NCBI GenBank assembly: GCA_038107695.1
Contig: JAYNHF010000004.1
Location: 8,576 to 72,575, forward strand
Origin: Flavobacteriaceae bacterium
GTDB lineage: Bacteria > Bacteroidota > Bacteroidia > Flavobacteriales > Flavobacteriaceae
Reading direction: 5' to 3'
DNA: 64,000 bases
Made by a program: the position numbers and the translations under genes. A model generated the notes under the pieces. The model searched no databases and was not told the DNA's origin. It saw only the letters and a program-made list of their open reading frames with translations. This document shows, piece after piece, positions 47,873 to 63,350 of this stretch; position 1 is the first letter of the stretch; each line of letters starts with the position of its first letter.

Positions 47873-48061
47873 AATTAATCATGTAAGAATAATGAAAATA
47901 TTCTATTATCATATAAATTATTGTAAATCATAGACTTGTTTGCTTCAAAAATGATATTTTTTTCTTCAAATATTACATTTTCAAATTTACTTTACACATA
48001 TTTTTACTTATTATATATAAAAATCTTTTAAAAATCAGTTAAAAACCAATAACAACGATTT

Positions 48062-51000: not shown

Positions 51001-51223
51001 GAATAATATGACCGTAGGTTTTGATGTACCAATAAGTGAAGGTTCAGATATTGAAAATATGAATATCTTTCTGGCAGGACAAAACTTGTTTACGCTTACC
51101 AAATACAGTGGGTATGATCCCGAGATATCCAACTTCCTCTATACGGGATTAATTAATGGAGTTGATTGGAACGGGCCTCCAAATGCTAAAACAATTTTAC
51201 TCGGTATAAACATAAATTTCTAA
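48062..51223 (+). CDS. susC: SusC/RagA family TonB-dependent outer-membrane transporter
   Basis: Signal peptide and a carboxypeptidase-regulatory-like N-domain 'VKGTVSDDMGMPLPGVAIVIK'. Plug motifs are 'VVVGYGT', 'IRGTNSL' and 'YGSRGANGVVLITTKKG'. The C-terminal barrel ends in '...GININF'. Confidence 0.93.
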   Translation: MKNLFLILIFSPILIFSQSRSVKGTVSDDMGMPLPGVAIVIKSDPSQGVTTDFDGNFSIDIPDDQDGILIFTYVGFSNQEIDASEVSVINLSMQPDETLLEEVVVVGYGTVLKKDVTGSLSTVEVESEVANQSTSIDQLLQGRAAGVQVIQNSGSPGSGISVKIRGTNSLRGNNEPLYVIDGVIISSAGEDVMPAGGIGNSGQEIQNGLNGINPRDIESVQILKDASATAIYGSRGANGVVLITTKKGSSSKVKINTFVTSSIRSVTKKYDVLDGLTYAKYRNETLELEGNNPAYQITDNEVFRISYGDDGDDPGSSSSLSAGIYKWQNELFRQGFSTKAGLSASGGSDKGNYYVSAGFDNQQGVIENSSLKSGDLRINLNQDLNDNLKLEARVSAFFNETDFAESGDLIGANQSFIRNVIAFRPVISEEIDEFNEDLEASNPFSWVEDFYDQSKEKRYIGSLGLTYKLPLKGLSYQFKVGGNSRTKDRRRFYGLTTFQGSAANGALQISTLNSNSYQINNFLRFNRDFNNKHRINALLGTTYDVRNVNSSIYAVESFVTTELTTLQPYLGSAITQPLRYLKSDQQIFSLLGRINYTFNNKYIATVSFRRDGVSKFSEENRYGNFPSFALAWRMENEGFISNLDAFEDLKIRAGWGQIGNHGIGPYGTLSNYGVSDNLYGNTSNGTTVPLSLNNIANPNLTWEKTEQINFGLDFALKDNFISGSIDLYEKTTKDLLQNSPIPTSSGYSNILINRGSVSNKGMEVALNVAAVSKENFELSLGANIAFNQTKIEELGIPNNDFFIDGVAQQRSFYFGQNISRGNIFKAPANVFVEGEESSLFYGFKTNGIYQTEDTDLVEGAVPGDVRIVDQNQDGKIDLDDRTFIGNPNPDFVYGFNLSLRIKRISAKLLFNGVQGNDIANGNLLQLDNAEGIITNIRPDAYNNAWRPDAQSNTYPRIGFTTNGRVAISDRIIEDGSYLRLNNMTVGFDVPISEGSDIENMNIFLAGQNLFTLTKYSGYDPEISNFLYTGLINGVDWNGPPNAKTILLGININF

Positions 51224-51246
51224 TCGTGATTATTAAAAATATAAAA

Positions 51247-52773
51247 ATGAAAAATTATAAAATTATTTTATTAATGATATTCGGTCTTTTTACCGTTTCA
51301 TGCGATTTGGATGAAGACCCTATTTTTTTGGATGTTTCGATGTATGAGAACCCAGAAAGTGCCTCTGCTGCAATTGATGGTATCTATCAATCCTTAACCA
51401 CCTACAATACTCAAGAGAGAAGGTACTTTGTTGTGAATGGATTTTCTGGTTTTTTTACCACTGGGAAAAATGGGAATAACAATAAAAACATTAATAATGT
51501 CAATTTATTCTCACTTAAGCCTGTTTATGATGCTGACTCTGAAGCGGTATGGGGAGGATTGTATCAAGCGATTGCTCAAGCAAACTCTGCCATTAAAAAC
51601 CTTAAAGTCGCAGAATCTCCAAGTACAACCAGTGAATTACAATTGGCAGATTTAGCTGGTCATGCCTACTTTCTTAGGGCTTGGTGTTACTTTTCACTAA
51701 CCAGACTTTTTGGCGATATTCCCCTTTGGCTAGAACTTCCCAGTTCATCAAGCCTCAACCAAGCCAAAACTGCTTCAAAAGACATATATGCTCAAGCAAT
51801 TAATGATGCAATGATGGCCAAAAGCTTATTAAACGGCTCTAAGGGTAAAGGTTATCCCAAAGTTTTTGCTGCCAATATGCTCTTATCCAAACTCTACATG
51901 ACGTTGGCTACCAATGTTTCTTTACAAGCTGATGGTATATCGGAGACGGAGTATTGGCAAAAGGCTTACGATGAAGCTATTGAAGTATACAGAAGTGCTA
52001 ATTACAGTCTGGTTTCAAACTATAGCAGTCTATTTACAGATAGTAGTGAAAATACTTCTGAATCAATATTCGAATTGCAGATATCCCAGGATGCTGCCAA
52101 TTCACAAATGGGAAGAAATTATTCTCCTTGGAAATGGAAAAAAACCCTAGCTTTTGGTTGGTTTAAAGTACACGCCAATATATACGATGATCATGCTGCT
52201 ACCTATCCTAATGATCCCAGGTTAGAAGGTACATTCATCAGTGAGTGGACTAGGGCAGATAATGGTAAGACTGCAAAATTTTATCCATCCAACCCCAGTA
52301 GAAGTAGTTATTTTAATGCCAACCCATTTTTTTTCAAGTTTGCTGAAAAAGATCAAACCAGTACTACTCAATACAACAGTCAAAATATTGTGGTTTACAG
52401 ATATGCTGAATTGTTGATCATGCTCTCTGAAATATCCAATGAACTTCAAAACGGTGAGGAAATGATCTATGTTCAACAAGTTTTGGATCGAGTAGGTATG
52501 ACCCCTCATGCAGGTTACAATGGATCCAAAGAAGACTTTAGAGATGCAATCATGCGTGAATATCGCTATGAATTATTGGGTGAAGGAGAAGATGCTCATA
52601 ATAACCGAAGAAGAGGATTTAATTATTTTCTGGTTAATGTGATTTTAAAACATAACAACAACCCAGGGTTTAAAGCGAATGTTGACTTAACTCTTAGTAC
52701 TGATGAGTCAAAGGTGATGCAATTGCCTATTCCACTAATAGAGGTTAATACTAACGAATTAATCGATAACTAA
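51247..52773 (+). CDS. susD: SusD/RagB family nutrient-binding outer-membrane lipoprotein
   Basis: It lies immediately downstream of susC. Lipobox 'GLFTVSCD'. TPR-like SusD segments 'AYFLRAWCYFSLTRLFGDIPL' and 'VVYRYAELLIMLSE'. The ATG at 51247 is preferred over the GTG at 51226. Confidence 0.85.
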   Translation: MKNYKIILLMIFGLFTVSCDLDEDPIFLDVSMYENPESASAAIDGIYQSLTTYNTQERRYFVVNGFSGFFTTGKNGNNNKNINNVNLFSLKPVYDADSEAVWGGLYQAIAQANSAIKNLKVAESPSTTSELQLADLAGHAYFLRAWCYFSLTRLFGDIPLWLELPSSSSLNQAKTASKDIYAQAINDAMMAKSLLNGSKGKGYPKVFAANMLLSKLYMTLATNVSLQADGISETEYWQKAYDEAIEVYRSANYSLVSNYSSLFTDSSENTSESIFELQISQDAANSQMGRNYSPWKWKKTLAFGWFKVHANIYDDHAATYPNDPRLEGTFISEWTRADNGKTAKFYPSNPSRSSYFNANPFFFKFAEKDQTSTTQYNSQNIVVYRYAELLIMLSEISNELQNGEEMIYVQQVLDRVGMTPHAGYNGSKEDFRDAIMREYRYELLGEGEDAHNNRRRGFNYFLVNVILKHNNNPGFKANVDLTLSTDESKVMQLPIPLIEVNTNELIDN

Positions 52774-52826
52774 AAATTAAGTTAATCAATATGTGTTCTG
52801 AGTTGTTTATGATCTATTGAGCTATT

Positions 52827-53936
52827 ATGAAAGTAATTTCAAATTACATACCAATTGTCGTAACCTTATGGCTACTTAGCGGTTTTAGCTCGCAAGTCGG
52901 CATTGGCTATGATGTAGTCAGTGAATTTAATTTAACCTCACTTTCAGAAACTTTCAAGGATGATTTTGAAATTGGTACTGCCATTTCTACTGAAAAACTG
53001 AATGATAAAATAACTCTCAAAATTGTTGAAAAACATTTTTCAAGTATCACTGCTGAAAATGAGATGAAACCTGTTAATCTACTACGAAAGAATGGTGATT
53101 ACAATTGGAGGCCAGGTAATCGATTGGTTGCTTTTGCACAAAAAAATAATTTAAATCTAAGGGGGCATACCCTTTTGTGGCACAAGCAAACACCAGACTG
53201 GTTTTTTAAAGATGCTCAAGGTAAGTTACTCAACAAAGCTCAGCTCTACATTAAACAATACTCCTACATGAAGTCAGTTATGGGTCACTTCGACAAAGTA
53301 ATGGTTTGGGATGTAGTCAATGAGGCTGTAAATGATCAATCCAATACTGAGTTTATTTACAGGAGAAAAGGTTCTAGGTGGTTTGAAATTTGCGGAAGTG
53401 AATATATTGCCAAAGCTTTTGAAATGGCTCATGCAATTGCACCAAAAAAGAAACTTTTTTATAATGATTATGGTTTACTTTCAAGCAGTAAACAAAAAAA
53501 AGTCTTCCGATTACTCAAGGGCTTAATCGATCATGGGGTTCCTGTTCATGGTATTGGAATCCAAGCACATTGGAGTATCTATGACCATCCCCAAGATGTT
53601 GAAAAACTAATTTCCCGTTTTGCTTCATTGGGATTGGAAATTCACATTACTGAATTGGATGTTTCTGTGTTCAGGGGAGGTGATAAAGCAAAACATCGGA
53701 ATTATATTTTCAGTGAAGAAGATCAAAAACGTCAAGTAGCATTTTACCAATCTATTTTCAAAATTTTCAGAAAATATAAAAACGAAATCTCAAGTGTGAG
53801 CTTTTGGGGAGTTAGAGATAATGAAAGCTGGTTAAACAAACATCCTGTTAAGGGGAGGAGAAATTATCCTCTTTTATTTGATGATCAGGGCATGCCCAAA
53901 AAGAGTTTTTATGCCATTAGTAATTTCTCAAAATGA
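52827..53936 (+). CDS. GH10 endo-1,4-beta-xylanase
   Basis: Signal peptide. GH10 acid/base motif 'VWDVVNEAV' and nucleophile motif 'IHITELDVS'. Also 'GHTLLWHKQTP' and 'FWGVRDNESW'. Confidence 0.9.
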   Translation: MKVISNYIPIVVTLWLLSGFSSQVGIGYDVVSEFNLTSLSETFKDDFEIGTAISTEKLNDKITLKIVEKHFSSITAENEMKPVNLLRKNGDYNWRPGNRLVAFAQKNNLNLRGHTLLWHKQTPDWFFKDAQGKLLNKAQLYIKQYSYMKSVMGHFDKVMVWDVVNEAVNDQSNTEFIYRRKGSRWFEICGSEYIAKAFEMAHAIAPKKKLFYNDYGLLSSSKQKKVFRLLKGLIDHGVPVHGIGIQAHWSIYDHPQDVEKLISRFASLGLEIHITELDVSVFRGGDKAKHRNYIFSEEDQKRQVAFYQSIFKIFRKYKNEISSVSFWGVRDNESWLNKHPVKGRRNYPLLFDDQGMPKKSFYAISNFSK

Positions 53937-53966
53937 TTAAAATGTATTTGAAACAAAAGTGAAGTA

Positions 53967-55391
53967 ATGATGCAATCAAGAATTAACATATTGATTTTTG
54001 GGATATCAATATCGCTATCATTGGCTGGTTTTGGTTTTATACCGGATACGGTTACTGGTGATGAATTGGAGGAGCGTCCCAATATTATATTTTATCTCTC
54101 TGATGACCAAGATCAACTGGATTATGGGTGTTACGGTAATCCCAAAGTAAAAACACCTAATGTTGATCAGCTGGCTCAGCAAGGAATGAAATTTACAAAT
54201 TTCTATACTGCTCAAGCCATTTGCGCTCCCTCAAGATCACAGATTTTTACAGGTATGTATCCCGTTAAAAATGGTTGCATGGCAAATCATATTGGAGTGA
54301 GGAAAGATATTTTAAGTATTACCAAATATTTTAAAGAATCTGGATATGAGATTGTATTGGCTGGAAAAAGTCATGTAAAACCCAATCGTGTGTTTCAATG
54401 GACGCAATACTTTCCTCCCCAAAAAAAGAGATATCTTCCTCTGGATAAAGTTGATGCTTACCTTAAAAATGCCAATAAACCCTTCTGCCTCATATTGGCC
54501 TCTGATTTTCCTCATGGCCCCTACCCTAATGATGGCACTTACACCAAAAAAGACATCTATCCGCTGCCATATAGTGGAGGTCGGATTCCTAATTTTAAAC
54601 CTGGATACTATCAAAACATCGAAAGTGACGATCAGCAATTAGGAGCAGTAATGCGTATGGTAGATCAATACAAGCTAAGGGATAAATCAATGTTTATTTA
54701 TGCATCAGATCATGGAATTTCAGGAAAATGGGGGCTTTCAGAGCAAGGTCTCAAGGTTCCTTTTGTGGTCAGATGGCCAGGAAAAATAAAACCCAATGTC
54801 TCATCAGACGTTTTATTGACATTAGTGGATATTCTTCCAACTCTTTTAGAGGCCATTGGTGCTGAAAAGCCCAGTGGTATTGACGGTAATAGTTTTTACA
54901 AAATATTTAGAGGTGAAAATAAAGAAATAAATCCTTACATATTTGGAGTAGCCACGCAGCAGAATATCAGAGCCTGTAAGGTTTTTCCATCTAGAATGGT
55001 AAGAGGAAAACGATTTAAGCTTATTAAGAATTTTAACGCTACCGAAGTTTACCAGTCGAACTATGGTAGCAATCCAATAGTAAATGAGTTCATTAAATTG
55101 GGAGCAGAAGCCTTCCCCCACATTCCTTATGAGGAGTTGTACGATTTGGAAGAAGATCCTTACCAAACCAATAACCTTGCTAAAAATCCAGAATATCAAT
55201 CTTTAAAGCAAAAGTTATCCTCAGTTCTAGACTCTTGGATGAAAGCGCAAAATGACTTTTTGACTCATCACAAAATGCCCCTTTTAAAACCTAACCTCCA
55301 CCCCTTGGATCAAAATTCTGTATGGAATAAAGTATCAGCTTCGTTAACGGGCAAGTTAAAGGAAGAAGATTATTTAAAATTACATTACTAA
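53967..55391 (+). CDS. S1-family (formylglycine-dependent) sulfatase
   Basis: Signal peptide. Metal-binding 'IIFYLSDDQD', FGly motif 'CAPSRSQIFTG' and 'ASDHG'. It resembles sulfamidase/N-sulfoglucosamine-type sulfatases. Confidence 0.9.
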   Translation: MMQSRINILIFGISISLSLAGFGFIPDTVTGDELEERPNIIFYLSDDQDQLDYGCYGNPKVKTPNVDQLAQQGMKFTNFYTAQAICAPSRSQIFTGMYPVKNGCMANHIGVRKDILSITKYFKESGYEIVLAGKSHVKPNRVFQWTQYFPPQKKRYLPLDKVDAYLKNANKPFCLILASDFPHGPYPNDGTYTKKDIYPLPYSGGRIPNFKPGYYQNIESDDQQLGAVMRMVDQYKLRDKSMFIYASDHGISGKWGLSEQGLKVPFVVRWPGKIKPNVSSDVLLTLVDILPTLLEAIGAEKPSGIDGNSFYKIFRGENKEINPYIFGVATQQNIRACKVFPSRMVRGKRFKLIKNFNATEVYQSNYGSNPIVNEFIKLGAEAFPHIPYEELYDLEEDPYQTNNLAKNPEYQSLKQKLSSVLDSWMKAQNDFLTHHKMPLLKPNLHPLDQNSVWNKVSASLTGKLKEEDYLKLHY

Positions 55392-55394
55392 AAA

Positions 55395-57062
55395 ATGAAT
55401 GGTTTTTTGAAAATACTGATTTTATGTTTGTTGGCAATGTTCCATTTGGATTCTATTGCTCAAAAAATCAATCAAAAACCTTTGAATGTCATATGGTTAA
55501 GTACAGAGGACATGGGACCTTTGTTGGGGTGTTATGGAGTCAAAGGGATTGATACTCCAAACTTGGATAAACTTGCCAGTGAAGGAATCACATACAAAAA
55601 CGCATTTGCTACTGTTGGTGTGTGCGCACCGAGCAGGTTTTCTATCATAACAGGAATGTATCCCATTCGACTTGGAGCTCACAACATGAGAACCGGTGAT
55701 TATCATAATTACAAAACACCCGAGGAAGTCACCCACACAACCTATATTGGGGTAAGAGATAAGAATGGTAACAATGTGCCTGAATATGAGGTGGTTACTC
55801 CAAATGAAGTCAAATGCTTTACAGAAATCCTTCGAGCTGAGGGATATTATTGTGCCAATAGCTTTAAATGCGACTATCAATTCAATGCCCCTTTTACGGC
55901 TTGGGATGATGTCTCGTTTAACGCCACTTATCGCAATGCACCAAAAGGCAAACCTTTTTTCTATGTCAAAAATTTTATGGTTACACATGAATCCAGAATA
56001 TGGATTCGAAAGGAGGAACCGCTTTCAGTAGCTCTTGATGAGGTTGAAGTGCCGTCTTATTTTCCAGATATTGAGCAAGTTCGACACGACATTGCCAGAA
56101 AGTATTCCAATATAGAGGAAATGGATCGTCAACTTGGGGTTTTGATGGCTAATTTAGAAGCTGACGGATTACTTGACAGCACTATTATTATGTTTTGGAG
56201 TGACCACGGTGGAAATCTTTTAAGGCAAAAAAGGGCGGTTGGAAAAAGTGGGCTCAATGTTCCTCTTATCATTCGATACCCTGACAAAAGAATGGCTGGA
56301 ACGGTCAGTGAGAGAATAGTATCACTAATGGATTTAGGCCCAACGGTCATGTCCCTGTTGAATATCAAACCTCCTGATCATTACGATGGAAAACCATTTG
56401 CAGGCAAGTTTGCCAGTACACCTCGGTCATATGCTTATGGCAGTGCAGACCGTTTTGATGAAGCCACTGACATGCAACGCTCTGTAACCGATGGAAGATT
56501 CATGTATATCAAAAATTTCATGACACAATTACCGCTGATTTATCGCAATAGATATCGGGAACAAATACCTATGAATGCTGCATTAATTGAAATGGATAGA
56601 AACAATGAGTTGACCGGAGATGCTGCGTACATATTTATGAAAACCAAGCCTATCGAAGAATTATATGATTTAGAAAACGATCCCTATGAGGTAAATAACT
56701 TGGCTAAAGATCCTAAACATCAAAAGCAACTGATCAAAATGAGAGGGTTGGTAACCCAATGGCAATGGGAGGTTGGAGACAAGGGATACATTCCGGAAAA
56801 TGATTTGGTTGCAATGTTTTGGCCAAACATGATTCAACCTAAAACTGCTGAAGTAAAATTCAGTTCAATCAAAACCAAGAAAATAATTTTGTCTTCTGCA
56901 ACCAAAGGAAGTTCGATAGGTTATCAAACAGGACCCCAAATCGGTTCTAATCATTGGACACTTTACTCAGGACCTATCCAATACGCATCAGAAAAAAAAA
57001 TAGTCGCTAGAGCCATTAAAATAGGGTATCAGGCTTCAGAAATCACATCAAACTTAAACTAA
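55395..57062 (+). CDS. S1-family sulfatase with extra C-terminal beta-sandwich-like domain
   Basis: Signal peptide. 'VIWLSTEDMG', FGly motif 'CAPSRFSIITG' and 'WSDHGG'. The last 80 aa or so ('...WTLYSGPIQYASEKKIVARAIKIGYQASE') resemble a chitobiase/hexosaminidase C-terminal (CHB_HEX_C_1-like) module. Confidence 0.9.
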   Translation: MNGFLKILILCLLAMFHLDSIAQKINQKPLNVIWLSTEDMGPLLGCYGVKGIDTPNLDKLASEGITYKNAFATVGVCAPSRFSIITGMYPIRLGAHNMRTGDYHNYKTPEEVTHTTYIGVRDKNGNNVPEYEVVTPNEVKCFTEILRAEGYYCANSFKCDYQFNAPFTAWDDVSFNATYRNAPKGKPFFYVKNFMVTHESRIWIRKEEPLSVALDEVEVPSYFPDIEQVRHDIARKYSNIEEMDRQLGVLMANLEADGLLDSTIIMFWSDHGGNLLRQKRAVGKSGLNVPLIIRYPDKRMAGTVSERIVSLMDLGPTVMSLLNIKPPDHYDGKPFAGKFASTPRSYAYGSADRFDEATDMQRSVTDGRFMYIKNFMTQLPLIYRNRYREQIPMNAALIEMDRNNELTGDAAYIFMKTKPIEELYDLENDPYEVNNLAKDPKHQKQLIKMRGLVTQWQWEVGDKGYIPENDLVAMFWPNMIQPKTAEVKFSSIKTKKIILSSATKGSSIGYQTGPQIGSNHWTLYSGPIQYASEKKIVARAIKIGYQASEITSNLN

Positions 57063-58547
57063 ATGAAAAATCAAAATTCTAAATATAAGATTATCACACT
57101 ATTAGTTATAGTGATGATTGGGTTCGGATTTAGTGAAATTTCTAATAAAGTTGATTCAGTCCATCATACCGAAAAAGCTGAAGTGAAAAATAGTAATAAA
57201 AATATCCTCTTTATTTCAATTGACGATCTAAGACCACTGATCAATTCCTATGGTGTTTCTAAAATGATAACCCCAAACTTTGACAAATTGGCTTCTGAGA
57301 GTGTTCAATTCAATAATGCCTTTACCAATATAGCCGTATGTGGGGCAAGTAGGGCCAGTATTATGACGGGGATCAGGCCCAGTCAGAAGAGATTTAACGA
57401 TTACAGATCAAGAGCCTCTGTCGATGTACCTAATGCTACTCCTCTAAATAAGTTATTTAAAGACAATGGCTATGAGACCATCTCTTATGGTAAAATATTT
57501 CATTACGTTGACGATCATTACCAACATTGGACAGAGATTGATAATGGAGCTCCTCAAGCTGACTACCAGGATCCCATTTCCCAGGAACGCAAAAGAAATG
57601 GAGAAATGGGCTCACACGGTAGAAAAGGTCCAGCAGTCGAATATCCTGATGTTGATGACTATGCCTATACAGATGGGAAAATCACCAAAAAAGCATTACA
57701 AAAATTGAAAGCCCTTAAAAAAGAAAACAAACCTTTTTTTATGGCCTTAGGCTATGTATCTCCTCACTTACCGTTTATTCAGCCCAAGAAATACTGGGAC
57801 ATGTATGATCACGATGATATTGAATTGGCAGACAATGTCTATCATCCTAAAGGTGCACCTTACATTGCCACTAGGTCACAGCACTTTTCAGCAGAGCTAA
57901 GGAATATGTATTTAGACATTCCTAAATCTGGAAATTTAGATGACGAGTTGTCCAAAAACTTAATACATGGTTATTATGCAAGTGTAAGTTATTTAGATGC
58001 CATGATTGGTGAACTCATTGATGGGTTGGACGAAATGGGATTAAGAGATAGTACCACTATTGTATTGTGGAGTGATCACGGGTACTTTCTAGGAGAACAT
58101 GGGTTTTGGTGTAAGCATAGCACTTTTTATGAGGCTGTCAAAATACCCTTGTGGATTTCCTCTCCTAATTATGCTAAAAATAAAAAAACAGATTCTTTTA
58201 CAGAGCTAGTGGACATCTATCCGACCCTATGTGATATTACTGGAATATCTTCTCCAGAATATCTCCATGGAGAAAGCCTAAAACCTGTGCTTGAAGATCC
58301 TAATATGATATTGAAAACTGAAATTTATACTCGCTACAAACAAGGAGAAGCTGTTATCGATAAGGATTTTTCTTATACCGAATTCTATAATGGTGAAAAA
58401 TATATGGGTAATATGCTCTTTGATCTCCATGAGGATTTAAAACAGAATCGAGATATCTCTGAGAAAAAGGAAAATGAGAAAATTGTAGATAGATACAGTG
58501 AAAAATTGAAAATTATGAGAGAAAAAGTAAACCAAAATCCTATTTGA
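57063..58547 (+). CDS. S1-family sulfatase, iduronate-2-sulfatase-like
   Basis: 'ILFISIDDLRP' and '...NAFTNIAVCGASRASIMTGIRP' are collinear with human IDS 'DDLRP...[22 protein letters not shown]'. The FGly motif is the C-x-A-x-R variant. 'WSDHGYFLGEHG'. Confidence 0.9.
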   Translation: MKNQNSKYKIITLLVIVMIGFGFSEISNKVDSVHHTEKAEVKNSNKNILFISIDDLRPLINSYGVSKMITPNFDKLASESVQFNNAFTNIAVCGASRASIMTGIRPSQKRFNDYRSRASVDVPNATPLNKLFKDNGYETISYGKIFHYVDDHYQHWTEIDNGAPQADYQDPISQERKRNGEMGSHGRKGPAVEYPDVDDYAYTDGKITKKALQKLKALKKENKPFFMALGYVSPHLPFIQPKKYWDMYDHDDIELADNVYHPKGAPYIATRSQHFSAELRNMYLDIPKSGNLDDELSKNLIHGYYASVSYLDAMIGELIDGLDEMGLRDSTTIVLWSDHGYFLGEHGFWCKHSTFYEAVKIPLWISSPNYAKNKKTDSFTELVDIYPTLCDITGISSPEYLHGESLKPVLEDPNMILKTEIYTRYKQGEAVIDKDFSYTEFYNGEKYMGNMLFDLHEDLKQNRDISEKKENEKIVDRYSEKLKIMREKVNQNPI

Positions 58548-58548
58548 C

Positions 58549-59082
58549 ATGAAATTAAAATTCATTTTCATACTATCACTTGTTGCATTAATGATGGTCA
58601 ATGGTTTGTTTGGTCAAAACGTCAAAAGTAAAAATCTAAAAAGATCCAATATTGGAGCTGGTTATTCTTCGGCAAGTATGGTTCAAAACAACAAAACTTA
58701 TGTAATTCAACAATCAATTGGACAAACAAGTGTAATTGGTACCCATAGTAATGATAACTATACCCTAAGACAGGGCTTTATTCAACCAGATATTTTAGAA
58801 AAAATCATTGACAAACAAATTCCAATGATACTTGATCTGGTTTTTTACCCCAACCCTTTCTATGAAAAAGCTAACCTGTCTTTTTCAGAGGTTATTGAGG
58901 GAGGTGTTGAAGTTCAGGTTTTTGATATTCTTGGTAGACTAATTATCTCAAACAAATACCAGCCTTCCCAGCAACTTGAGCTCAATCTCGATCTACCCAA
59001 TACTGGAGACTACATTATCAAGGTAAAAGCCAATAATAAACAATTTATAAAACATATTCTCAAAGGGGGAACTAAAAAGTAA
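58549..59082 (+). CDS. small secreted protein consisting almost only of a T9SS C-terminal sorting domain
   Basis: Signal peptide 'MKLKFIFILSLVALMMVNGLFGQ' and an N-terminal region of about 70 aa containing 'QSIGQTSVIG...YTLRQGFIQP'. The C-terminal region of about 80 aa ('LVFYPNPFYEKANLSF...VQVFDILGRLI...DYIIKVKANNKQFIKHILK') matches the type-A Por/T9SS CTD pattern. Confidence 0.7.
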   Translation: MKLKFIFILSLVALMMVNGLFGQNVKSKNLKRSNIGAGYSSASMVQNNKTYVIQQSIGQTSVIGTHSNDNYTLRQGFIQPDILEKIIDKQIPMILDLVFYPNPFYEKANLSFSEVIEGGVEVQVFDILGRLIISNKYQPSQQLELNLDLPNTGDYIIKVKANNKQFIKHILKGGTKK

Positions 59083-59094
59083 AAACCATAAACA

Positions 59095-59760
59095 ATGAAA
59101 AAACTGATATTAATTTTAACGCTGCTAATAGGAACCAGTATTGTTTCAGCTCAAAAAATACATTTTGAAAGTGGTATTACTACAAGCAAATTCGATTATC
59201 AAAATTCAAATGGAAATCCACTGATGAACCTTAAACAGGTAAATGGTCGCTATTTGGCATTTGGATATAGCCAAAAACTATTTACAGAAAATCTTTATCT
59301 AAAACTCGATTTCAACTATTCCAGTTATGGCTCTATTGGAAGTGATATCGACTTTGGAAATTTTATGGAGTGGGAAGTATCATATGCAGGGGCGGGTCTT
59401 AGTTTTGATCTGGTATTACTTACCTACAAAAAACTTAAATTAACTGCCACTGGGGGCGGTTCGGCTGCTCTCCTTCACCGAGGAAATCAAATCATTAACA
59501 ACACAGTCACCGGTTTGAAAGGAAATCCAGATTTTGATGGGACGCTTTTCACCCCATTCTTTGGAGGAGGATTTTCCTACCCAGCCACAGACAACTTAGA
59601 CTTCTTTGTGAAGTATATTAATGGAAAGAGTTTAGACATTGCCAAGGGAAGAGAAACTTTAAAGTTTGAAAGCAGCACCATTTCATTTGGTGTTATGATT
59701 GGTATAGAGGCAGAAAAGAAAAAACATGTAGGAATTACTAATGAATCAAAAAACAAATAA
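59095..59760 (+). CDS. small outer-membrane beta-barrel (OmpA-N/porin-family-like) protein
   Basis: Signal peptide 'MKKLILILTLLIGTSIVSAQ'. Alternating hydrophobic beta-strand pattern with aromatic girdle residues ('YLAFGYSQ', 'LKLDFNYSSYG', 'VSYAGAGLSFDL', 'PFFGGGFSYP', 'ISFGVMIGI'). Confidence 0.55.
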   Translation: MKKLILILTLLIGTSIVSAQKIHFESGITTSKFDYQNSNGNPLMNLKQVNGRYLAFGYSQKLFTENLYLKLDFNYSSYGSIGSDIDFGNFMEWEVSYAGAGLSFDLVLLTYKKLKLTATGGGSAALLHRGNQIINNTVTGLKGNPDFDGTLFTPFFGGGFSYPATDNLDFFVKYINGKSLDIAKGRETLKFESSTISFGVMIGIEAEKKKHVGITNESKNK

Positions 59761-59761
59761 G

Positions 59762-61594
59762 ATGAAAAAAAGAGCATTTTTATTATTCATATTTCTAATT
59801 ATTGGATTAAATGGTTTTTCACAGACAAAAGCAATAAGTTATCAGGCAGTAATTCTCAATCCTCAACAGCAGGAATTACCTGGTAGTAATATACAGACCA
59901 ATGTACTCATGCATAGGTATGTTAGTATCCAGTTTGTCATTGAAGGACCAGCAGGTGATATTCAATATGAAGAAGTTCACAACACAAAGACAGACCGTTT
60001 TGGGATGATCAATCTTTTGATTGGTAAAGGTCAAAAGGTAAGTGTCAATACTTTTGATGAAATATCATGGGATGGTACAGGAAAAATGTTGAAAGTAGGA
60101 ATTGATTTTTCTGGCGGTTCTAACTTTGAACCTTTAGGTCAGCAAGAGCTTACTTTTTACCCCCAACCTCCCTCTGAGGAAGTAAGGGCACAAATAGATC
60201 AATTAGAGGAAACTGTCTCCAAAAATTCGAAAAAGGTTGGTCTGTCTGACGCACACATTAATACCCTTGAAATTGTCTCGGGCATTACTACTCAAACCCT
60301 TCAGGAAATTAATGACAATAATGAAAAAATTAATGAAATTGAATCTAAGGTTTCAGATTTGGAAGATGACATCGGTAATGTTTCTTTTAATGAATTGAAC
60401 GCAGCAACAAAAGCCTATATAGACCAATTACTTATTAAAGTAGCGGATCCAGCCAAATTGATTGCAGCTGGATTTTCATTTGCTGCAGTAACAGGAGGAA
60501 AAACGGTAGCACAACTGTATGCCGATGGAATTTCGGTTGCTGATCTTATTCAGTCAGGTGCAACAGCCACAGAATTAATTAATGCTGGTGCACCAGTTTC
60601 GGAAATGTTCAACGGTGGTTTAAGTTATACTGAACTGGTCACCGGTGGAGTAAGTGTTTCTGACCTCCAGTCTATTGGGGCAAGTACTTCGGATCTTGTT
60701 GCCGCCAATGCTTCAATATCTGAAATGATCGCAGCGGGAATTAGTGTTGGTGATTTATTGAATGAAAATGTTACTGTAAGCCAGCTTGTCTCTGGAAACG
60801 CTCCCATAAGCGACCTATTGTCTGCGGGGGTTAATGTTGGAGAATTGGTAAGCGCAAATGCTAGCTTGGCAGATATGTTGGCAGCAAATATTAGCATCCA
60901 AGATCTTCTCAATGAAAATGTAACGGTAAATGCCTTGGTTTCAAGCGGAGCCTCTGTTTCTGACCTTATAGCGGCAAGTGTAACAACTGCGCAGTTGGTT
61001 AGTGCAGGCGCTTCAACTTCAGATATGTTGGCAGAAAGTAGTATTAGCGTTCAAGATCTACTCGATGCCGATGAAACTGTACTAAATCTATTGAATGCCT
61101 CCGTAACGGCTTCAAGTTTGATTGGAAAGCTGTACCAAGGAGGTATCATTACCTACGTTAATAACTCTGACGGAACAGGCTTAATTGCAGCACTTTCTGA
61201 TGCCTCTGGATCTGTAATTGATTGGGCAAATCCTGCTTCACAAGTTATGGGTACCAGTGCAGCAATTGGTGCTGGTGCAGACAATACAACTAAAATAATT
61301 ACGGCATTAGGCACTGGAATATCTGCTGCTGCTCAGGCAAATGCATATACTAGTGGCGGATATAATGATTGGTTTTTACCCAGTCCTGACGAAATAAAGA
61401 CCCTTTGGGATAACCTCGCCACACTTAATTCAACTACTGGCTTTACAGATATTAAATATTTTACTTGGACATCTCACAATAATAATGGTGGCACTTACGC
61501 TCAAAGATTAAAAAAACCAGATGGTACGATTGCTGGTGCTGGACAAACAGGAAACAATGGAAATAACTATGTACGACCCATGCGTTATTTCTAA
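59762..61594 (+). CDS. secreted fibre-like protein: N-terminal Ig-like module, coiled coil, ~22 x 10-aa repeat tract and C-terminal DUF1566 (Lcl C-terminal-like) domain
   Basis: The ATG at 59762 gives the signal peptide MKKRAFLLFIFLIIGLNGFSQ. The N-terminal 'ISYQAVILNP...QFVIEG...YEEVH...FGMINLLIGKG...ISWDG...LKVGIDFSGG' pattern is common in Bacteroidota tail-fibre-like proteins. Heptad-like stretch 'QIDQLEETV...INEIESKVSDLEDDI'. C-terminal 'GGIITYV..GTGLIAA...W...IGAGADNT..I...GGYNDWFLPSPDEIKTLW' matches the DUF1566 pattern. Confidence 0.6.
   Translation: MKKRAFLLFIFLIIGLNGFSQTKAISYQAVILNPQQQELPGSNIQTNVLMHRYVSIQFVIEGPAGDIQYEEVHNTKTDRFGMINLLIGKGQKVSVNTFDEISWDGTGKMLKVGIDFSGGSNFEPLGQQELTFYPQPPSEEVRAQIDQLEETVSKNSKKVGLSDAHINTLEIVSGITTQTLQEINDNNEKINEIESKVSDLEDDIGNVSFNELNAATKAYIDQLLIKVADPAKLIAAGFSFAAVTGGKTVAQLYADGISVADLIQSGATATELINAGAPVSEMFNGGLSYTELVTGGVSVSDLQSIGASTSDLVAANASISEMIAAGISVGDLLNENVTVSQLVSGNAPISDLLSAGVNVGELVSANASLADMLAANISIQDLLNENVTVNALVSSGASVSDLIAASVTTAQLVSAGASTSDMLAESSISVQDLLDADETVLNLLNASVTASSLIGKLYQGGIITYVNNSDGTGLIAALSDASGSVIDWANPASQVMGTSAAIGAGADNTTKIITALGTGISAAAQANAYTSGGYNDWFLPSPDEIKTLWDNLATLNSTTGFTDIKYFTWTSHNNNGGTYAQRLKKPDGTIAGAGQTGNNGNNYVRPMRYF
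60452..61125 (+). repeat. in-frame degenerate tandem repeat, 30-nt / 10-aa period (~22 units, consensus S-x-S-D-L-[VIL]-x-A-G-[AV])
   Basis: Protein read-out: ...ISVADLIQSG ATATELINAG APVSEMFNGG LSYTELVTGG VSVSDLQSIG ASTSDLVAAN ASISEMIAAG ISVGDLLNEN VTVSQLVSGN APISDLLSAG VNVGELVSAN ASLADMLAAN ISIQDLLNEN VTVNALVSSG ASVSDLIAAS VTTAQLVSAG ASTSDMLAES... Nucleotide identity between units is only moderate. Confidence 0.8.
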
Positions 61595-61622
61595 AATTAA
61601 CAAAAATCAAAATTAATAAACG

Positions 61623-62171
61623 ATGCAAAATACATCTATAAGATGCTTTATATCCTGTCTAATGATGGGACTACTATCCATATCATTATCTGCTCAAGAT
61701 AAAATTGAACTCAAAAACAGTCAGCTAGAAGGATCCAACGCCCAGGGTGAGTTTTACTGGTGGAAACACCAAGCCAAAGGCGGAGGGGAGGCCAACTACT
61801 CTATTGAGTATAATGATGTAAACGAAGGAAGTAAAAAAGCCTTAAAAGCTGAAATCAAATCCTTGGGAACAAAACCTTGGTTCGTCAGCAGTCAATTCAA
61901 TCAGAAATTTAAAGCCAAAGCTGGAGATGAAATCACGATAACTTTTTTTGGAAAAAAAACTACTGGTAATAAAAGTAAAATAAAATTAGTTTTCCAGTCT
62001 GATATCAAAGGGAGTTTTCAAGGAAAAGATTTTATTATGACTGAGGAATGGAAATCATATTCCCACACATTTGTTGTCAATGAAAAAAGTAGTAATAATC
62101 AAATCAAATTTTGGTACATGGAGGTGGGCGCCACCTATTTGATAGATGATGTCAATATCTATAAAAATTAA
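61623..62171 (+). CDS. stand-alone secreted carbohydrate-binding-module-like protein (CBM4_9/CBM22-like beta-sandwich)
   Basis: Signal peptide 'MGLLSISLSAQ'. 'NSQLEG...W...' at the start and 'TEEWKSYSHTF...IKFWYMEVGATYLIDDVNIY' at the end fit the CBM_4_9 pattern (W/Y platform, terminal 'iDDv'). No catalytic domain is present. Confidence 0.5.
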   Translation: MQNTSIRCFISCLMMGLLSISLSAQDKIELKNSQLEGSNAQGEFYWWKHQAKGGGEANYSIEYNDVNEGSKKALKAEIKSLGTKPWFVSSQFNQKFKAKAGDEITITFFGKKTTGNKSKIKLVFQSDIKGSFQGKDFIMTEEWKSYSHTFVVNEKSSNNQIKFWYMEVGATYLIDDVNIYKN

Positions 62172-62216
62172 TAAACTAAAAATAACTTATTTAAAACTAA
62201 ATTGAATTTTACATTA

Positions 62217-63320
62217 ATGAAAAAGACTTCCTTCTTAATACTATTATTTATCATCCTATTTTTTTCAGAGAAAAAGCTCCAAGCCCAGACAAGTGTTTCC
62301 AATGATAAATTTACTGCCAAAAAATTAACTACTAACACAAAATTCTTAAACCCCCCATTAGTTTCAGAGATCTATACAGCAGATCCGTCCGCTCATGTTT
62401 TTGGTGGTCGCATCTATATATATGGATCGCATGATATCGAAAGTACTGTTATTGACGACGACTGCGGAAGTCAATACAGCATGAGAGACTACAGAGTACT
62501 ATCAATGGATTCTGTTGGAGGTCCTGTGACTGTTCACAAAGTTGGATTAGACCTTGATGATGTTCCATGGGCGACCCGACAATTTTGGGCACCAGATGCA
62601 GCCTATAAAAACGGGAAGCATTATCTGTATTTTCCCTCTAAAGATAAAGACGATAGATTCAGAATTGGCGTTGCCGTTTCAAGTAAACCAGAAGGTCCAT
62701 TTGTTGCAGAACCCAACTTCATTCCCGGAAGTTACAGTATAGATCCTGCTGTTTTTACTGATGATGATGGAAGCTCTTATATGTATTTCGGTGGTATATG
62801 GGGTGGCCAATTACAGAGGTGGGAGAATAACACTTATGAAGACTCCAATTGTAAAAAACAAGACAGAGGAAACCCAGAGACTCCAGCGATCATGCCAAGA
62901 ATAGCAAAAATGTCAGATGATATGCTTACTTTCAGTGAGGAGGTTAAAGAAGTGATGATACTTGATGAAAATGGTAATCCAATACTAACAAAAGACCATA
63001 ATCGTCGTTTTTTTGAAGCAGCTTGGATTCACAAATACAAAGGGGTATATTACTTAAGTTATTCAACAGGGAATACCCATTATCTCCAGTATGCCACAGG
63101 CGATAATCCTTATGGCCCATTTGTGTATCAAGGCATAATGAATCAACCCGTTAAAGGTTGGACTAATCACCACTCAGTGGTCGAAATAAACGATCAATGG
63201 TATCTTTTTTACCATGATATAGAACTTTCTAATCAAACCAACTTAAGAAACATAAAGATGGCCAAGTTAACTCATAATAAAGATGGATCTATTCAAACAA
63301 TCAATACCATATTGGATTGA
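62217..63320 (+). CDS. GH43 family glycoside hydrolase (beta-xylosidase/alpha-L-arabinofuranosidase type)
   Basis: Signal peptide. 'YTADPSAHVFGGRIYIYGSHD' (catalytic base Asp region), 'FWAPDAAYKNGKHYLYF' and 'FFEAAWIHKYKGVYYLSYS' (catalytic Glu region) are typical of five-bladed propeller GH43 enzymes. The ATG at 62217 is preferred over the TTG at 62202. Confidence 0.85.
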   Translation: MKKTSFLILLFIILFFSEKKLQAQTSVSNDKFTAKKLTTNTKFLNPPLVSEIYTADPSAHVFGGRIYIYGSHDIESTVIDDDCGSQYSMRDYRVLSMDSVGGPVTVHKVGLDLDDVPWATRQFWAPDAAYKNGKHYLYFPSKDKDDRFRIGVAVSSKPEGPFVAEPNFIPGSYSIDPAVFTDDDGSSYMYFGGIWGGQLQRWENNTYEDSNCKKQDRGNPETPAIMPRIAKMSDDMLTFSEEVKEVMILDENGNPILTKDHNRRFFEAAWIHKYKGVYYLSYSTGNTHYLQYATGDNPYGPFVYQGIMNQPVKGWTNHHSVVEINDQWYLFYHDIELSNQTNLRNIKMAKLTHNKDGSIQTINTILD

Positions 63321-63350
63321 TATGAAATAAAGCTTGGCCTAATATTAATT

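What the first reader, a model, noticed from the sequence alone, without database searches (positions are those of the whole stretch)
59762..61594. Lcl-like architecture: repeat stalk plus DUF1566 head encoded next to sulfatases
Seen: the protein has a signal peptide, an N-terminal module shared with Bacteroidota 'tail-fibre-like' proteins (ISYQAV...), a heptad-like segment and a repeat tract of about 225 aa. Its C-terminal domain of about 155 aa carries DUF1566 hallmarks (GG.I.YV..GTGLIAA, IGAGADNT, GGYNDWFLPSPDEI). Established: DUF1566 is the C-terminal domain of the Legionella collagen-like adhesin Lcl. Lcl sits on a repeat stalk and has been reported to bind sulfated glycosaminoglycans. 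Inference: by analogy this protein could be a sulfated-glycan-binding adhesin on a non-collagen stalk, which would fit the three adjacent sulfatases. It lacks a recognisable T9SS CTD or lipobox, so its route to the surface is unexplained.
Basis: partly seen in the sequence, partly recalled or inferred. Interest (0 to 1): 0.65.

Follow-up and report, generated by a model that had tools for sequence, protein, structure and literature searches.

The report
Surface fibre cassette inside a xylan/sulfatase locus
The gene encodes a long, probably three-stranded surface fibre with a lectin-like tip; it belongs to a very large, barely studied Bacteroidota family related to the prey-grabbing fibres of Bdellovibrio, it always comes with a small partner protein that carries a type IX secretion signal, and its position next to sulfatases is a local accident of this lineage, not a family trait.

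Summary
The protein has a signal peptide, a 115-aa beta-rich N-domain, two short heptad segments, 22 decapeptide repeats and a 157-aa C-terminal head.

The head is a true relative of the Legionella Lcl C-terminal domain (DUF1566). Its own Pfam score is below threshold, but a family profile hits PDB 8Q4E at E 8.5e-21, and 8Q4E is the only significant Foldseek match in the PDB.

- The repeats are DotG/IcmE-type decapeptides (PF25296), predicted to form an alpha-solenoid.
- The N-domain is homologous to the N-domain of Bdellovibrio 'mosaic adhesive trimer' (MAT) fibres.
- Two genes lie between the sulfatases and the fibre gene: a 177-aa protein with a type A T9SS signal domain and a 221-aa outer-membrane beta-barrel.

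These three genes form a cassette. Across 80 other species, 79 loci have the T9SS partner, 70 have the barrel and none has a sulfatase within 10 kb.

Three of the four lysines that bind glycosaminoglycans in Lcl are certainly absent; the fourth has basic residues only nearby. The head is only 39% identical in the orthologous locus, against 74-83% for the locus enzymes.

The sulfated-glycan reading is therefore weakly supported. The T9SS partner is the best lead for how the fibre reaches the surface.

The parts
58549..59082 (+). Cassette gene 1: a 177-aa mini-protein. It has a signal peptide, a conserved N-part of about 55 aa (R..G..GSS..Y.IQQSIGQ.S.IGT...Y.LRQGFIQP), a short linker and a type A T9SS C-terminal sorting domain.
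   Evidence: PF18962 at E 3.8e-11 and TIGR04183 at E 5.8e-12, both above their cut-offs. All 14 aligned homologues hit TIGR04183. The alignment is A5. A homologue lies upstream on the same strand in 79 of 80 loci.
59095..59760 (+). Cassette gene 2: a 221-aa secreted protein, probably a small outer-membrane beta-barrel.
   Evidence: It has no Pfam hit of its own. Of 20 homologues, 14 hit PF13505 OMP_b-brl (best 1.2e-10) and 11 hit PF13568. It is present in 70 of 80 loci, always on the fibre's strand.
59762..61594 (+). Cassette gene 3: the fibre protein of the finding (610 aa; the coordinates include the stop codon).
59762..59824 (+). Signal peptide (residues 1-21), with Gln as the first mature residue.
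   Evidence: Read directly from the sequence. The Gln is invariant in alignment A2.
59825..60166 (+). N-terminal beta-rich domain (residues 22-135), homologous to the N-domain of Bdellovibrio MAT fibres.
   Evidence: Against NF053851 Bdello_MAT_N the window protein scores E 2e-4 and 21 bits, below the 60-bit cut-off. Of 26 family members, 24 hit it (best 1.7e-13). AF2 predicts beta strands with pLDDT about 77-89. The family has 26,501 cluster representatives.
60170..60448 (+). Helical segment with two short heptad stretches (residues 137-229), the presumed trimerising coiled coil.
   Evidence: Heptad test. AF2 predicts helices at 139-159, 177-205 and 214-227, with the low confidence expected when a coiled coil is modelled as a monomer.
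60449..61120 (+). 22 decapeptide repeats (residues 230-453), consensus S-D-L-(L/V)-x-A-G-(A/V)-S-V, of the DotG/IcmE type. They are predicted to form a solenoid of 6-residue helices joined by 4-residue turns.
   Evidence: PF25296 at E 6e-27. DotG chain of PDB 7muc at E 7e-29. Period of 10 residues. AF2 pLDDT 96-98 across the tract. The DNA copies are only 65-74% alike, so the repeats are old.
61121..61591 (+). C-terminal head (residues 454-610): Lcl-CTD/DUF1566-type C-type-lectin-like fold.
   Evidence: The same fold occurs in predicted proteins of tailed phages carrying DUF1566, S74, collagen or 'tail fiber' labels (TM up to 0.86).
53967..58547 (+). Context only: three sulfatase genes (53967-55391, 55395-57062, 57063-58547). 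They end 1 nt before cassette gene 1.
   Evidence: PF00884 at E 2e-40, 9.5e-33 and 4.7e-37.
43685..53936 (.). Context only: the start of the polysaccharide utilisation locus. It holds a hybrid two-component sensor (43685-47872, - strand), a SusC-like gene (48062-51223), a SusD-like gene (51226-52773) and a GH10 gene (52827-53936).
61623..63320 (+). Context only: a small secreted DUF642-like protein (61623-62171) and a GH43 gene (62202-63320). They follow the fibre gene after gaps of 28 and 30 nt.
   Evidence: Both are conserved in the orthologous locus.

Best explanation
The gene encodes the fibre subunit of a conserved three-gene Bacteroidota cassette (58549-61594).

Shown:
- The fibre is a mosaic protein. 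In order it has a Sec signal peptide, a beta-rich N-domain homologous to that of Bdellovibrio MAT fibres, short heptad segments, 22 DotG-type decapeptide repeats and an Lcl-CTD-type lectin-like head.
- Its gene is almost always preceded by a gene for a mini-protein of about 170 aa with a type A T9SS sorting domain.
- A gene for a small outer-membrane beta-barrel is usually there as well.
- Relatives keep the N-domain and swap the tip.

Inferred mechanism:
1. The fibre trimerises through the coiled coil and the head, as Lcl and the MAT fibres do.
2. Its conserved N-domain docks onto the cassette's own partner or partners at the cell surface.
3. The mini-protein is exported by the T9SS. Its sorting domain is then removed, and the remaining peptide of about 70 aa is either fixed to the outer membrane or held by the barrel protein.
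4. This gives the CTD-less fibre its anchor and possibly its ride across the outer membrane.
5. The solenoid stalk holds the lectin-like head away from the cell, where it binds a surface ligand, most probably a carbohydrate.

In this genome the cassette has been captured inside a xylan/sulfatase utilisation operon. It is therefore probably made together with those enzymes and would tether the cell to its food particle. The ligand is unknown, and nothing in the sequence points specifically to sulfate groups.
For: Architecture:
- Pfam, NCBIfam and PDB hits.
- Head-to-Lcl match by profile (E 8.5e-21) and by fold.
- N-domain to MAT: 24 of 26 relatives hit NF053851, best 1.7e-13.

Cassette:
- Of 80 loci from 80 species, 79 have the T9SS partner and 70 the barrel gene, always upstream on the same strand.
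- The same pairing appears in metagenomic loci, including a tandem array of partner-plus-fibre units.

Tip swapping:
- Relatives carry collagen, fn3, Fib_succ_major, Peptidase_G2/S74 or MopE+Lcl_C tips, or no recognisable domain.

Tip as a binding module:
- Lcl-CTD binds glycosaminoglycans (PMC11162425).
- The same fold caps predicted fibre proteins of tailed phages.
- One MAT fibre, Bd2740, ends in a C-type lectin fold trimer.

Operon embedding:
- Gaps are 1, 12, 1, 28 and 30 nt, and terminators are not in excess.
- The arrangement is retained in a relative whose fibre is 55% identical.
Against: - No experiment or multimer model shows that the N-domain touches the mini-protein or the barrel. 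Gene linkage alone does not prove contact.
- I know of no precedent for the T9SS carrying a CTD-less passenger; that statement rests on my own knowledge.
- Bdellovibrio has related N-domains but, to my knowledge, no T9SS. The N-domain therefore cannot depend on T9SS everywhere.
- Ten of the 80 loci lack the barrel gene, so it is dispensable or encoded elsewhere.
- Trimer formation is inferred, not modelled.
- The window protein scores below the curated cut-offs of both PF07603 and NF053851.
- Co-transcription with the utilisation locus is inferred from gene spacing only.
Confidence: 0.55

Rival explanations
1. The protein is an Lcl-like adhesin whose DUF1566 head binds sulfated glycans through a charged surface, and it works together with the three sulfatases on a sulfated algal polysaccharide.
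For: - The head is homologous to Lcl-CTD.
- Lcl binds sulfated glycosaminoglycans and fucoidan (PMC11162425).
- The gene lies in one tightly packed same-strand block with three sulfatases, GH10 and GH43.
- This arrangement is conserved in a second organism.
Against: - The Lcl lysines K369, K380, K385 and K391 align to H572, P586, A591 and G600.
- The Lcl authors note that these lysines are missing even in other Legionella species and expect other specificities there.
- The head has a net charge of -1, and the mature protein has pI 4.2 and a net charge of -36.
- None of the 80 related loci has a sulfatase within 10 kb, and neither do five metagenomic loci of other DUF1566-headed fibres.
- The head is 39% identical between the orthologous loci, against 74-83% for the enzymes.
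Confidence: 0.15
2. The fibre recognises other cells rather than the food polymer. Like Bdellovibrio MAT fibres and phage receptor-binding proteins, its fast-changing tip would bind surface glycans or proteins of neighbouring bacteria or of an algal host. Its uses could include aggregation, competition or colonisation. Its position in the utilisation locus would then be incidental.
For: - The N-domain is homologous to MAT fibres that bind prey.
- The same head fold occurs on predicted fibre proteins of tailed phages and in two Porphyromonas phages.
- Tips are swapped freely between relatives.
- The head diverges far faster than the neighbouring genes.
- In other genomes the cassettes sit next to regulators, not next to carbohydrate enzymes.
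Against: - The organisms that carry the cassette are not known predators; this rests on my own knowledge.
- The cassette has no intergenic space of its own in this locus, and the arrangement is kept in two lineages. That argues for use together with the locus.
- No ligand was tested.
Confidence: 0.22
3. The fibre is not displayed on the cell surface. It stays in the periplasm or is shed in vesicles, and its linkage to the T9SS mini-protein reflects shared regulation rather than assembly.
For: - The fibre has only a Sec signal. It has no CTD, no lipobox and no barrel domain.
- MAT fibres were first found in a vesicular compartment (PMC10769870).
Against: - A same-strand, adjacent partner in 79 of 80 loci across families and orders is hard to explain by regulation alone.
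- Both Lcl and the MAT fibres are exposed on the surface.
- A lectin-like tip on a long stalk has no obvious use in the periplasm.
Confidence: 0.06
4. The gene is a remnant prophage tail fibre gene.
For: - PHROG phrog_4245 matches residues 403-610 at E 1.7e-15.
- Viral predicted structures match the head.
Against: - The N-domain has no match in 50,697 phage records.
- The protein has a signal peptide.
- No phage genes lie nearby.
- The gene sits in a conserved cellular cassette in 80 species.
Confidence: 0.02

Closest known systems
Bdellovibrio bacteriovorus mosaic adhesive trimer (MAT) chimeric fibre proteins (Caulton et al. 2024, PMC10769870; NCBIfam NF053851)
   Same: [quoted passage not shown]
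- A long fibre region follows.
- The C-terminal tips are interchangeable. They include a C-type-lectin-fold tip (Bd2740) and tips with S74/G2 autoproteolytic chaperone domains.
- No secretion signal beyond the Sec signal peptide is recognisable.
   Different: - The window protein scores 18-21 bits against NF053851, whose cut-off is 60, so it is a distant relative and not a member of that subfamily.
- It is shorter (610 aa against about 1000).
- Its stalk is a coiled coil plus a decapeptide solenoid rather than the beta-rich 'meandering' trimer described for MATs.
- It is found in non-predatory Bacteroidota.
- It is encoded with a T9SS-CTD mini-protein and a barrel protein. To my knowledge Bdellovibrio has no T9SS.
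Legionella pneumophila collagen-like protein Lcl (Rehman et al. 2024, PMC11162425; PDB 8Q4E)
   Same: - The C-terminal head is homologous in sequence and fold.
- The overall plan is a head on a stalk.
- Core motifs are conserved (DW.LP..E, VRAVRAF-like C-terminus, the tryptophan equivalent to W315).
- Lcl relatives with collagen stalks exist in Bacteroidota. Here they turn out to carry the same MAT-like N-domain and T9SS partner.
   Different: - There are no collagen repeats.
- The N-terminus is a beta domain, not a 30-residue helix.
- Lcl is a type II secretion substrate.
- At least three of the four glycosaminoglycan-binding lysines, and the interface arginines R338 and R342, are not conserved.
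[quoted passage not shown]
   Same: Both share the decapeptide repeat (E 7e-29).
   Different: Only the repeat is shared. The window protein has no TrbI/VirB10 domain and scores 66.7 bits against NF033900, whose cut-off is 750.
T9SS cargo with genetically linked helper proteins, such as type B CTD adhesins with PorP/SprF-like shuttles (PMC12618676, PMC9143113)
   Same: A Bacteroidota surface adhesin locus in which a T9SS signal and a small outer-membrane barrel gene are encoded next to the adhesin.
   Different: Here the CTD is of type A and sits on a separate mini-protein, not on the adhesin. The barrel is a generic OMP_b-brl type, not PorP/SprF.

Membership tests
DUF1566 / Lcl_C (PF07603) | Match to the Pfam model at or above the gathering score (34.9 bits) | tested here: not met
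   25.9 bits as part of the whole protein and 29.5 bits as an isolated domain, covering model positions 26-117 only.
DUF1566 / Lcl_C (PF07603) | Homology to Lcl-CTD shown by profile and by fold | tested here: met
   21 of 22 homologous heads hit PF07603 (best 2e-13). Profile A1 against PDB 8q4e gives E 8.5e-21 over both halves of the domain. The AF2 model has 8q4e_A as its only significant PDB match (E 2.7e-5, TM 0.55/0.66).
Lcl family (collagen-like adhesins with DUF1566, as in PMC11162425) | Collagen-like Gly-X-Y repeat stalk | tested here: not met
   There is no PF01391 hit. The stalk is a coiled coil plus decapeptide repeats.
Lcl family (collagen-like adhesins with DUF1566, as in PMC11162425) | Basic surface lysines that bind glycosaminoglycans (K369, K380, K385, K391) | tested here: not met
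   They align to H572, P586, A591 and G600. Only R582, K584 and K585 lie near the K380 position. The alignment is approximate in the last 40 residues.
Lcl family (collagen-like adhesins with DUF1566, as in PMC11162425) | Trimeric head | not testable with these tools
   Only monomer prediction was available. The tryptophan equivalent to W315 at the interface is conserved, but R338 and R342 are not.
Lcl family (collagen-like adhesins with DUF1566, as in PMC11162425) | Export by type II secretion and a short N-terminal helix for surface association | tested here: not met
   The N-terminus is a 115-aa beta domain. The secretion route itself is not testable here.
MAT chimeric fibres (NF053851, PMC10769870) | Conserved beta-rich N-domain of about 130 aa directly after the signal peptide | tested here: met
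   The window protein scores E 2e-4 and 24 of 26 relatives hit the model, best 1.7e-13. AF2 predicts beta strands at residues 25-130. All scores are below the curated 60-bit cut-off, so it belongs to the superfamily and not to the Bdellovibrio subfamily.
MAT chimeric fibres (NF053851, PMC10769870) | Variable, exchangeable C-terminal tip domains on a constant N-domain | tested here: met
MAT chimeric fibres (NF053851, PMC10769870) | Trimeric fibre displayed on the cell surface | not testable with these tools
   The heptad segments and the Lcl-type head suggest a trimer. No localisation data exist.
T9SS cargo | C-terminal sorting domain (type A TIGR04183/PF18962 or type B) | tested here: not met
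   The fibre has none at E<=0.1. The upstream 177-aa protein has one.
DotG/IcmE | Full-length match including the TrbI/VirB10 domain | tested here: not met
   66.7 bits against a cut-off of 750. Only the repeats match.
Pentapeptide-repeat beta-helix proteins | Right-handed quadrilateral beta-helix | tested here: not met
   Only weak hits to designed pentapeptide proteins (E 0.002-0.15). AF2 predicts 6-residue helices with pLDDT 96-98, not strands.
Targets of diversity-generating retroelements (C-type lectin fold) | A template repeat matching the variable region near the gene | tested here: not met
   No repeat matching the head-coding DNA was found in 57000-64000. A reverse transcriptase was not searched for in the rest of the window.

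The most novel reading that the evidence does not exclude
The mini-protein of about 170 aa with a type A T9SS sorting domain is the missing 'surface element' for this class of fibre. It would bind the conserved MAT-like N-domain in the periplasm, carry the CTD-less trimer through the T9SS translocon as a passenger, and then hold it on the cell once its own sorting domain has been removed and it has been fixed to the outer membrane. The small barrel protein would serve as the docking site. This would be the first case of piggy-back secretion by the T9SS. It would assign a display mechanism to a family of more than 20,000 protein clusters, and it would suggest where to look for the unknown anchor of Bdellovibrio MAT fibres.
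Probability: 0.3. Interest if true: 0.8.

Novelty: new variant of a known kind. Interest (0 to 1): 0.55.

Why it matters
Two fibre families studied separately turn out to be built from the same kit of parts. One is the Legionella Lcl adhesin. The other is the set of Bdellovibrio MAT prey-recognition fibres.

In Bacteroidota that kit is very common. A profile of the N-domain finds 26,501 protein clusters. No Pfam model matched the window protein's N-domain, and I found no paper describing the family in this phylum.

The near-universal partner gene with a T9SS signal gives a directly testable answer to two open questions. The MAT authors asked what the conserved N-domain binds.

For marine polysaccharide degradation, a fibre cassette captured inside a sulfatase/xylanase operon is a candidate attachment device deployed with the enzymes. 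Its ligand has to be measured; it cannot be assumed from Lcl.

Tried and rejected
- Single-sequence search of the PDB with the whole protein found only the DotG repeats and designed pentapeptide proteins. The head match appeared only with a family profile.
- The first genome scan, with the broad N-domain alignment, failed because no stretch was conserved enough. A closer sub-alignment worked.
The barrel assignment therefore rests on Pfam hits of its homologues and a marginal PDB hit to NspA at E 0.22.
- Foldseek of the full-length model against the PDB gave nothing at E<=0.001, only generic beta-sandwich domains. The N-domain and the solenoid therefore have no close solved relative.
- Net charge as an argument against sulfate binding was dropped as a main point. 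The known parts of Lcl-CTD are themselves only about +1 by my hand count, which is not a tool result. The argument now rests on the specific lysines.
- Diversity-generating retroelement target: no template repeat.
- Prophage remnant: rejected.
- Pentapeptide beta-helix stalk: rejected on the AF2 result.
- The sigma-70 promoter and terminator scan showed no excess over shuffles, and it does not model Bacteroidota promoters.
- Literature searches found no description of the cassette. The held MAT supplements contain no mention of Bacteroidota or DUF1566.
Full report
**1. What is at the coordinates**

The + strand holds one ORF from ATG 59762 to the stop at 61594, giving 610 aa. An in-frame ATG at 59741 would give 617 aa and would overlap the upstream gene.

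The protein starts with a typical signal peptide (MKKRAFLLFIFLIIGLNGFS|QT). It contains no cysteine, so a lipoprotein signal is impossible. The mature protein is very acidic, with pI 4.2 and a net charge of -36.

**2. Domain by domain**

*N-domain (residues 22-135).*
- It is shared by 66 of the 74 homologues found in the large protein search. Those homologues otherwise differ completely after about residue 140.
- No Pfam model covers it.
- NCBIfam NF053851, the N-domain of Bdellovibrio 'mosaic adhesive trimer' (MAT) fibres, matches the window protein weakly (E 0.002 to 2e-4, 18-21 bits, cut-off 60).
- The same model matches 24 of 26 aligned relatives, best 1.7e-13.
- AlphaFold2 predicts a beta-rich domain with no significant solved relative.
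[quoted passage not shown] The authors presume it binds an unidentified surface element (PMC10769870).
- A profile of the domain finds 26,501 cluster representatives at E<=1e-3 and 23,755 at E<=1e-10. Among the 150 listed the domain almost always starts near residue 10.

*Helical segment (residues 137-229).* Two stretches, 137-160 and 176-206, have clear heptad spacing of L/I/V/M. They are predicted helical.

*Repeats (residues 230-453).*
- There are 22 repeats of exactly ten residues, with consensus S-D-L-(L/V)-x-A-G-(A/V)-S-V.
- They match PF25296 'Decapeptide repeat' (E 6e-27) and the repeat region of DotG/IcmE (PDB 7muc, E 7e-29).
- AlphaFold2 models each repeat as a 6-residue helix plus a 4-residue turn, with pLDDT 96-98. 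That is an alpha-solenoid, not a pentapeptide-type beta-helix.
- The DNA copies are only 65-74% alike, so the tract is old.

*Head (residues 454-610).*
- The window protein scores 25.9-29.5 bits against PF07603, below the gathering score of 34.9.
- The assignment is nevertheless secure. Of 22 homologous heads, 21 hit PF07603 (best 2e-13). Their profile hits the Lcl C-terminal domain, PDB 8Q4E, at E 8.5e-21 over both halves of the domain.
- The AF2 model (pLDDT 83.5) has 8q4e_A as its only significant PDB match. C-type lectins follow at E of about 1.
- The entry 8Q4E is Lcl-CTD (PMC11162425).

**3.

Two genes lie between the third sulfatase and the fibre gene.

The first (58549-59082) encodes a 177-aa protein. 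It has a signal peptide, a conserved N-part of about 55 aa, a short linker and a type A T9SS sorting domain. PF18962 matches at E 4e-11 and TIGR04183 at E 6e-12, both above their cut-offs.

The second (59095-59760) encodes a 221-aa secreted protein with no Pfam hit of its own. Its homologues hit the outer-membrane beta-barrel models PF13505 (14 of 20) and PF13568 (11 of 20).

All three proteins have an invariant Gln just after the predicted signal-peptide cleavage site. From my own knowledge, this is the usual pattern for exported Bacteroidota proteins.

**4. The three genes are a cassette, and sulfatases are not part of it**

A scan of one genome per species found 173 confirmed relatives of the N-domain. 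The best 80 loci, from 80 species, were kept. They come mainly from Flavobacteriaceae and Cyclobacteriaceae, with some Bacteroidales and others.

| Feature in the 80 loci | Loci with it |
|---|---|
| Fibre gene | 80 |
| T9SS mini-protein gene, upstream on the same strand | 79 |
| Barrel gene, upstream on the same strand | 70 |
| Sulfatase within 10 kb (iterative search) | 0 |
| SusD homologue | 0 |
| TonB-dependent receptor | 11 |

- After the cassette genes, the commonest real neighbours are regulators: a TPR/LuxR-type protein in 22 loci, a NarL-type response regulator in 17 and a membrane AraC-type protein in 13.
- Metagenomic loci show the same pairing for more distant fibres.
- One contig carries a tandem array of three partner genes and four fibre genes, some with collagen plus Lcl_C. 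The Bacteroidota 'Lcl homologues' noted by the Lcl authors therefore probably belong to this same cassette family.
- Tips are swapped freely. They include collagen, fn3, Fib_succ_major, Peptidase_G2/S74 autoproteolytic domains, MopE+Lcl_C, or nothing recognisable.
- Only 5 of the 80 genome loci have an Lcl-type head.

**5. The local context**

The window's cassette sits inside a polysaccharide utilisation locus. In order, the locus holds:
1. a hybrid two-component sensor (43685-47872, - strand)
2. SusC
3. SusD
4. GH10
5. three sulfatases
6. the cassette
7. a DUF642-like protein
8. GH43

The gaps around the cassette are 1, 12, 1, 28 and 30 nt. Terminator-like sites are not in excess.

The only other place with the same arrangement is the orthologous locus of a close relative.

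| Gene or region | Identity between the two loci |
|---|---|
| Locus enzymes and SusD | 74-83% |
| Mini-protein | 62% |
| Barrel protein | 65% |
| Fibre, overall | 55% |
| Fibre N-domain | 67% |
| Fibre repeats | 62% |
| Fibre head | 39% |

The cassette was therefore captured by this locus in one lineage and has been kept. Its tip changes much faster than the enzymes around it.

**6. Does it bind sulfated glycans like Lcl?**

In Lcl, glycosaminoglycan binding depends on a basic outer surface formed by K369, K380, K385 and K391. The authors state that these lysines are poorly conserved even in other Legionella species and expect other specificities there.

When the solved Lcl sequence and the window head are aligned to the family profile, these positions fall on H572, P586, A591 and G600. 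The only basic residues nearby are R582, K584 and K585. The interface arginines R338 and R342 are F538 and P542.

Combined with the lack of any sulfatase association in the family and the fast-evolving head, the Lcl analogy gives the fold but not the ligand. A carbohydrate ligand remains plausible for three reasons:
- The fold is C-type-lectin-like.
- The same fold caps predicted fibre proteins of tailed phages, with TM up to 0.86 and labels including DUF1566, S74, collagen and tail fiber.
- One MAT fibre ends in a lectin-fold trimer.

**7. Most likely mechanism**

Shown: the architecture, the cassette and the tip swapping.

Inferred: the fibre is a trimer, based on the heptads, the Lcl-type head and the MAT precedent. 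Its N-domain docks on the cassette's own partner or partners.

The mini-protein is a T9SS substrate. Type A sorting domains are recognised by the PorV shuttle after transport (PMC12618676). Type A cargo is typically fixed to the cell surface (PMC9143113 abstract).

That leaves a surface peptide of about 70 aa as a natural anchor. Because the fibre itself has no export signal beyond Sec, it may also cross the outer membrane bound to this partner. The barrel protein may be the docking site; it is missing in 10 of 80 loci.

In this genome the whole device is probably made together with the xylanase and sulfatase enzymes.

Weak points:
- There is no interaction evidence.
- I know of no precedent for passenger transport by the T9SS.
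- Bdellovibrio has related N-domains but, to my knowledge, no T9SS.

**8. Comparison, novelty and score**

The protein works like a MAT fibre, with a constant base and an exchangeable tip. It carries an Lcl-type head and a DotG-type repeat stalk. It fails the curated cut-offs of NF053851, PF07603 and NF033900. It lacks the collagen stalk, the N-terminal helix and the basic patch that define Lcl.

It is best filed as a new variant of a known kind: a Bacteroidota branch of the MAT-like chimeric fibres, with a T9SS-linked partner. I found no description of this cassette in the searchable literature.

The finding as written, a sulfated-glycan adhesin, is only partly supported. The object behind it is of moderate to good interest. 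The family is very large and unstudied, and the partner gene makes the display question directly testable.

Noticed in passing
window 40001-64000: G+C falls from 0.39-0.44 in the first 40 kb to 0.31-0.39 from about 40 kb onward, with a minimum of 0.31 at 44-48 kb over the sensor gene. The utilisation locus may have been acquired horizontally.
   Followed up: no
L089 5182-15612: A tandem array lies on one metagenomic contig: three T9SS mini-protein genes and four fibre genes. Their products are collagen+Lcl_C, two of collagen+decapeptide+Lcl_C, and Fib_succ_major. A hybrid sensor kinase gene is adjacent.
   Followed up: partly
L005-L007, 4979-5602 and 11200-13500: Three near-identical Polaribacter-like contigs carry a small phage-integrase-family gene just upstream of the cassette. 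They differ from one another only in the 2 kb downstream of the fibre gene, and one has a second integrase-like gene there. This could reflect site-specific recombination or tip shuffling.
   Followed up: no
L040, L061, L063, L067, L068, L073, L079, L085 (about 1.2 kb upstream of each fibre gene): In Aquimarina, Psychroserpens and a few other genomes the barrel gene is about twice as long (410-422 aa against about 215 aa). It may be a duplication or a fusion with another domain.
   Followed up: no
L008-L087, 1.5-3 kb upstream of the cassettes: Many cassettes are preceded by a regulator gene: a TPR/transmembrane/LuxR-type protein in 22 loci, a NarL-type response regulator in 17 and a membrane AraC-type protein in 13. 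This suggests dedicated control of fibre expression elsewhere.
   Followed up: partly
P0075 (916 aa): The best hit of the N-domain profile has six matched stretches (E 1e-101), so it appears to carry several tandem copies of the N-domain. This is unlike all the other fibres seen.
   Followed up: no
L001 2668-4200 versus window 53936-53967: The orthologous locus has an extra GH30/GH59-like gene between GH10 and the first sulfatase. The window lacks it.
   Followed up: no
window 63351-63995 (- strand): A 214-aa ORF has no Pfam hit at E<=1e-5 but contains a G-x-S-x-G-like 'GTSNGSG' motif. It may be a carbohydrate esterase at the end of the locus.
   Followed up: no
window 61623-62171: A small secreted protein has only a weak DUF642 hit (E 6e-4). 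It is 68% identical in the orthologous locus and absent from all other fibre loci. It may be a glycan-binding protein of the locus rather than part of the cassette.
   Followed up: partly
window 58549-61594: All three cassette proteins, and their aligned homologues, have an invariant Gln right after the predicted signal-peptide cleavage site.
   Followed up: no
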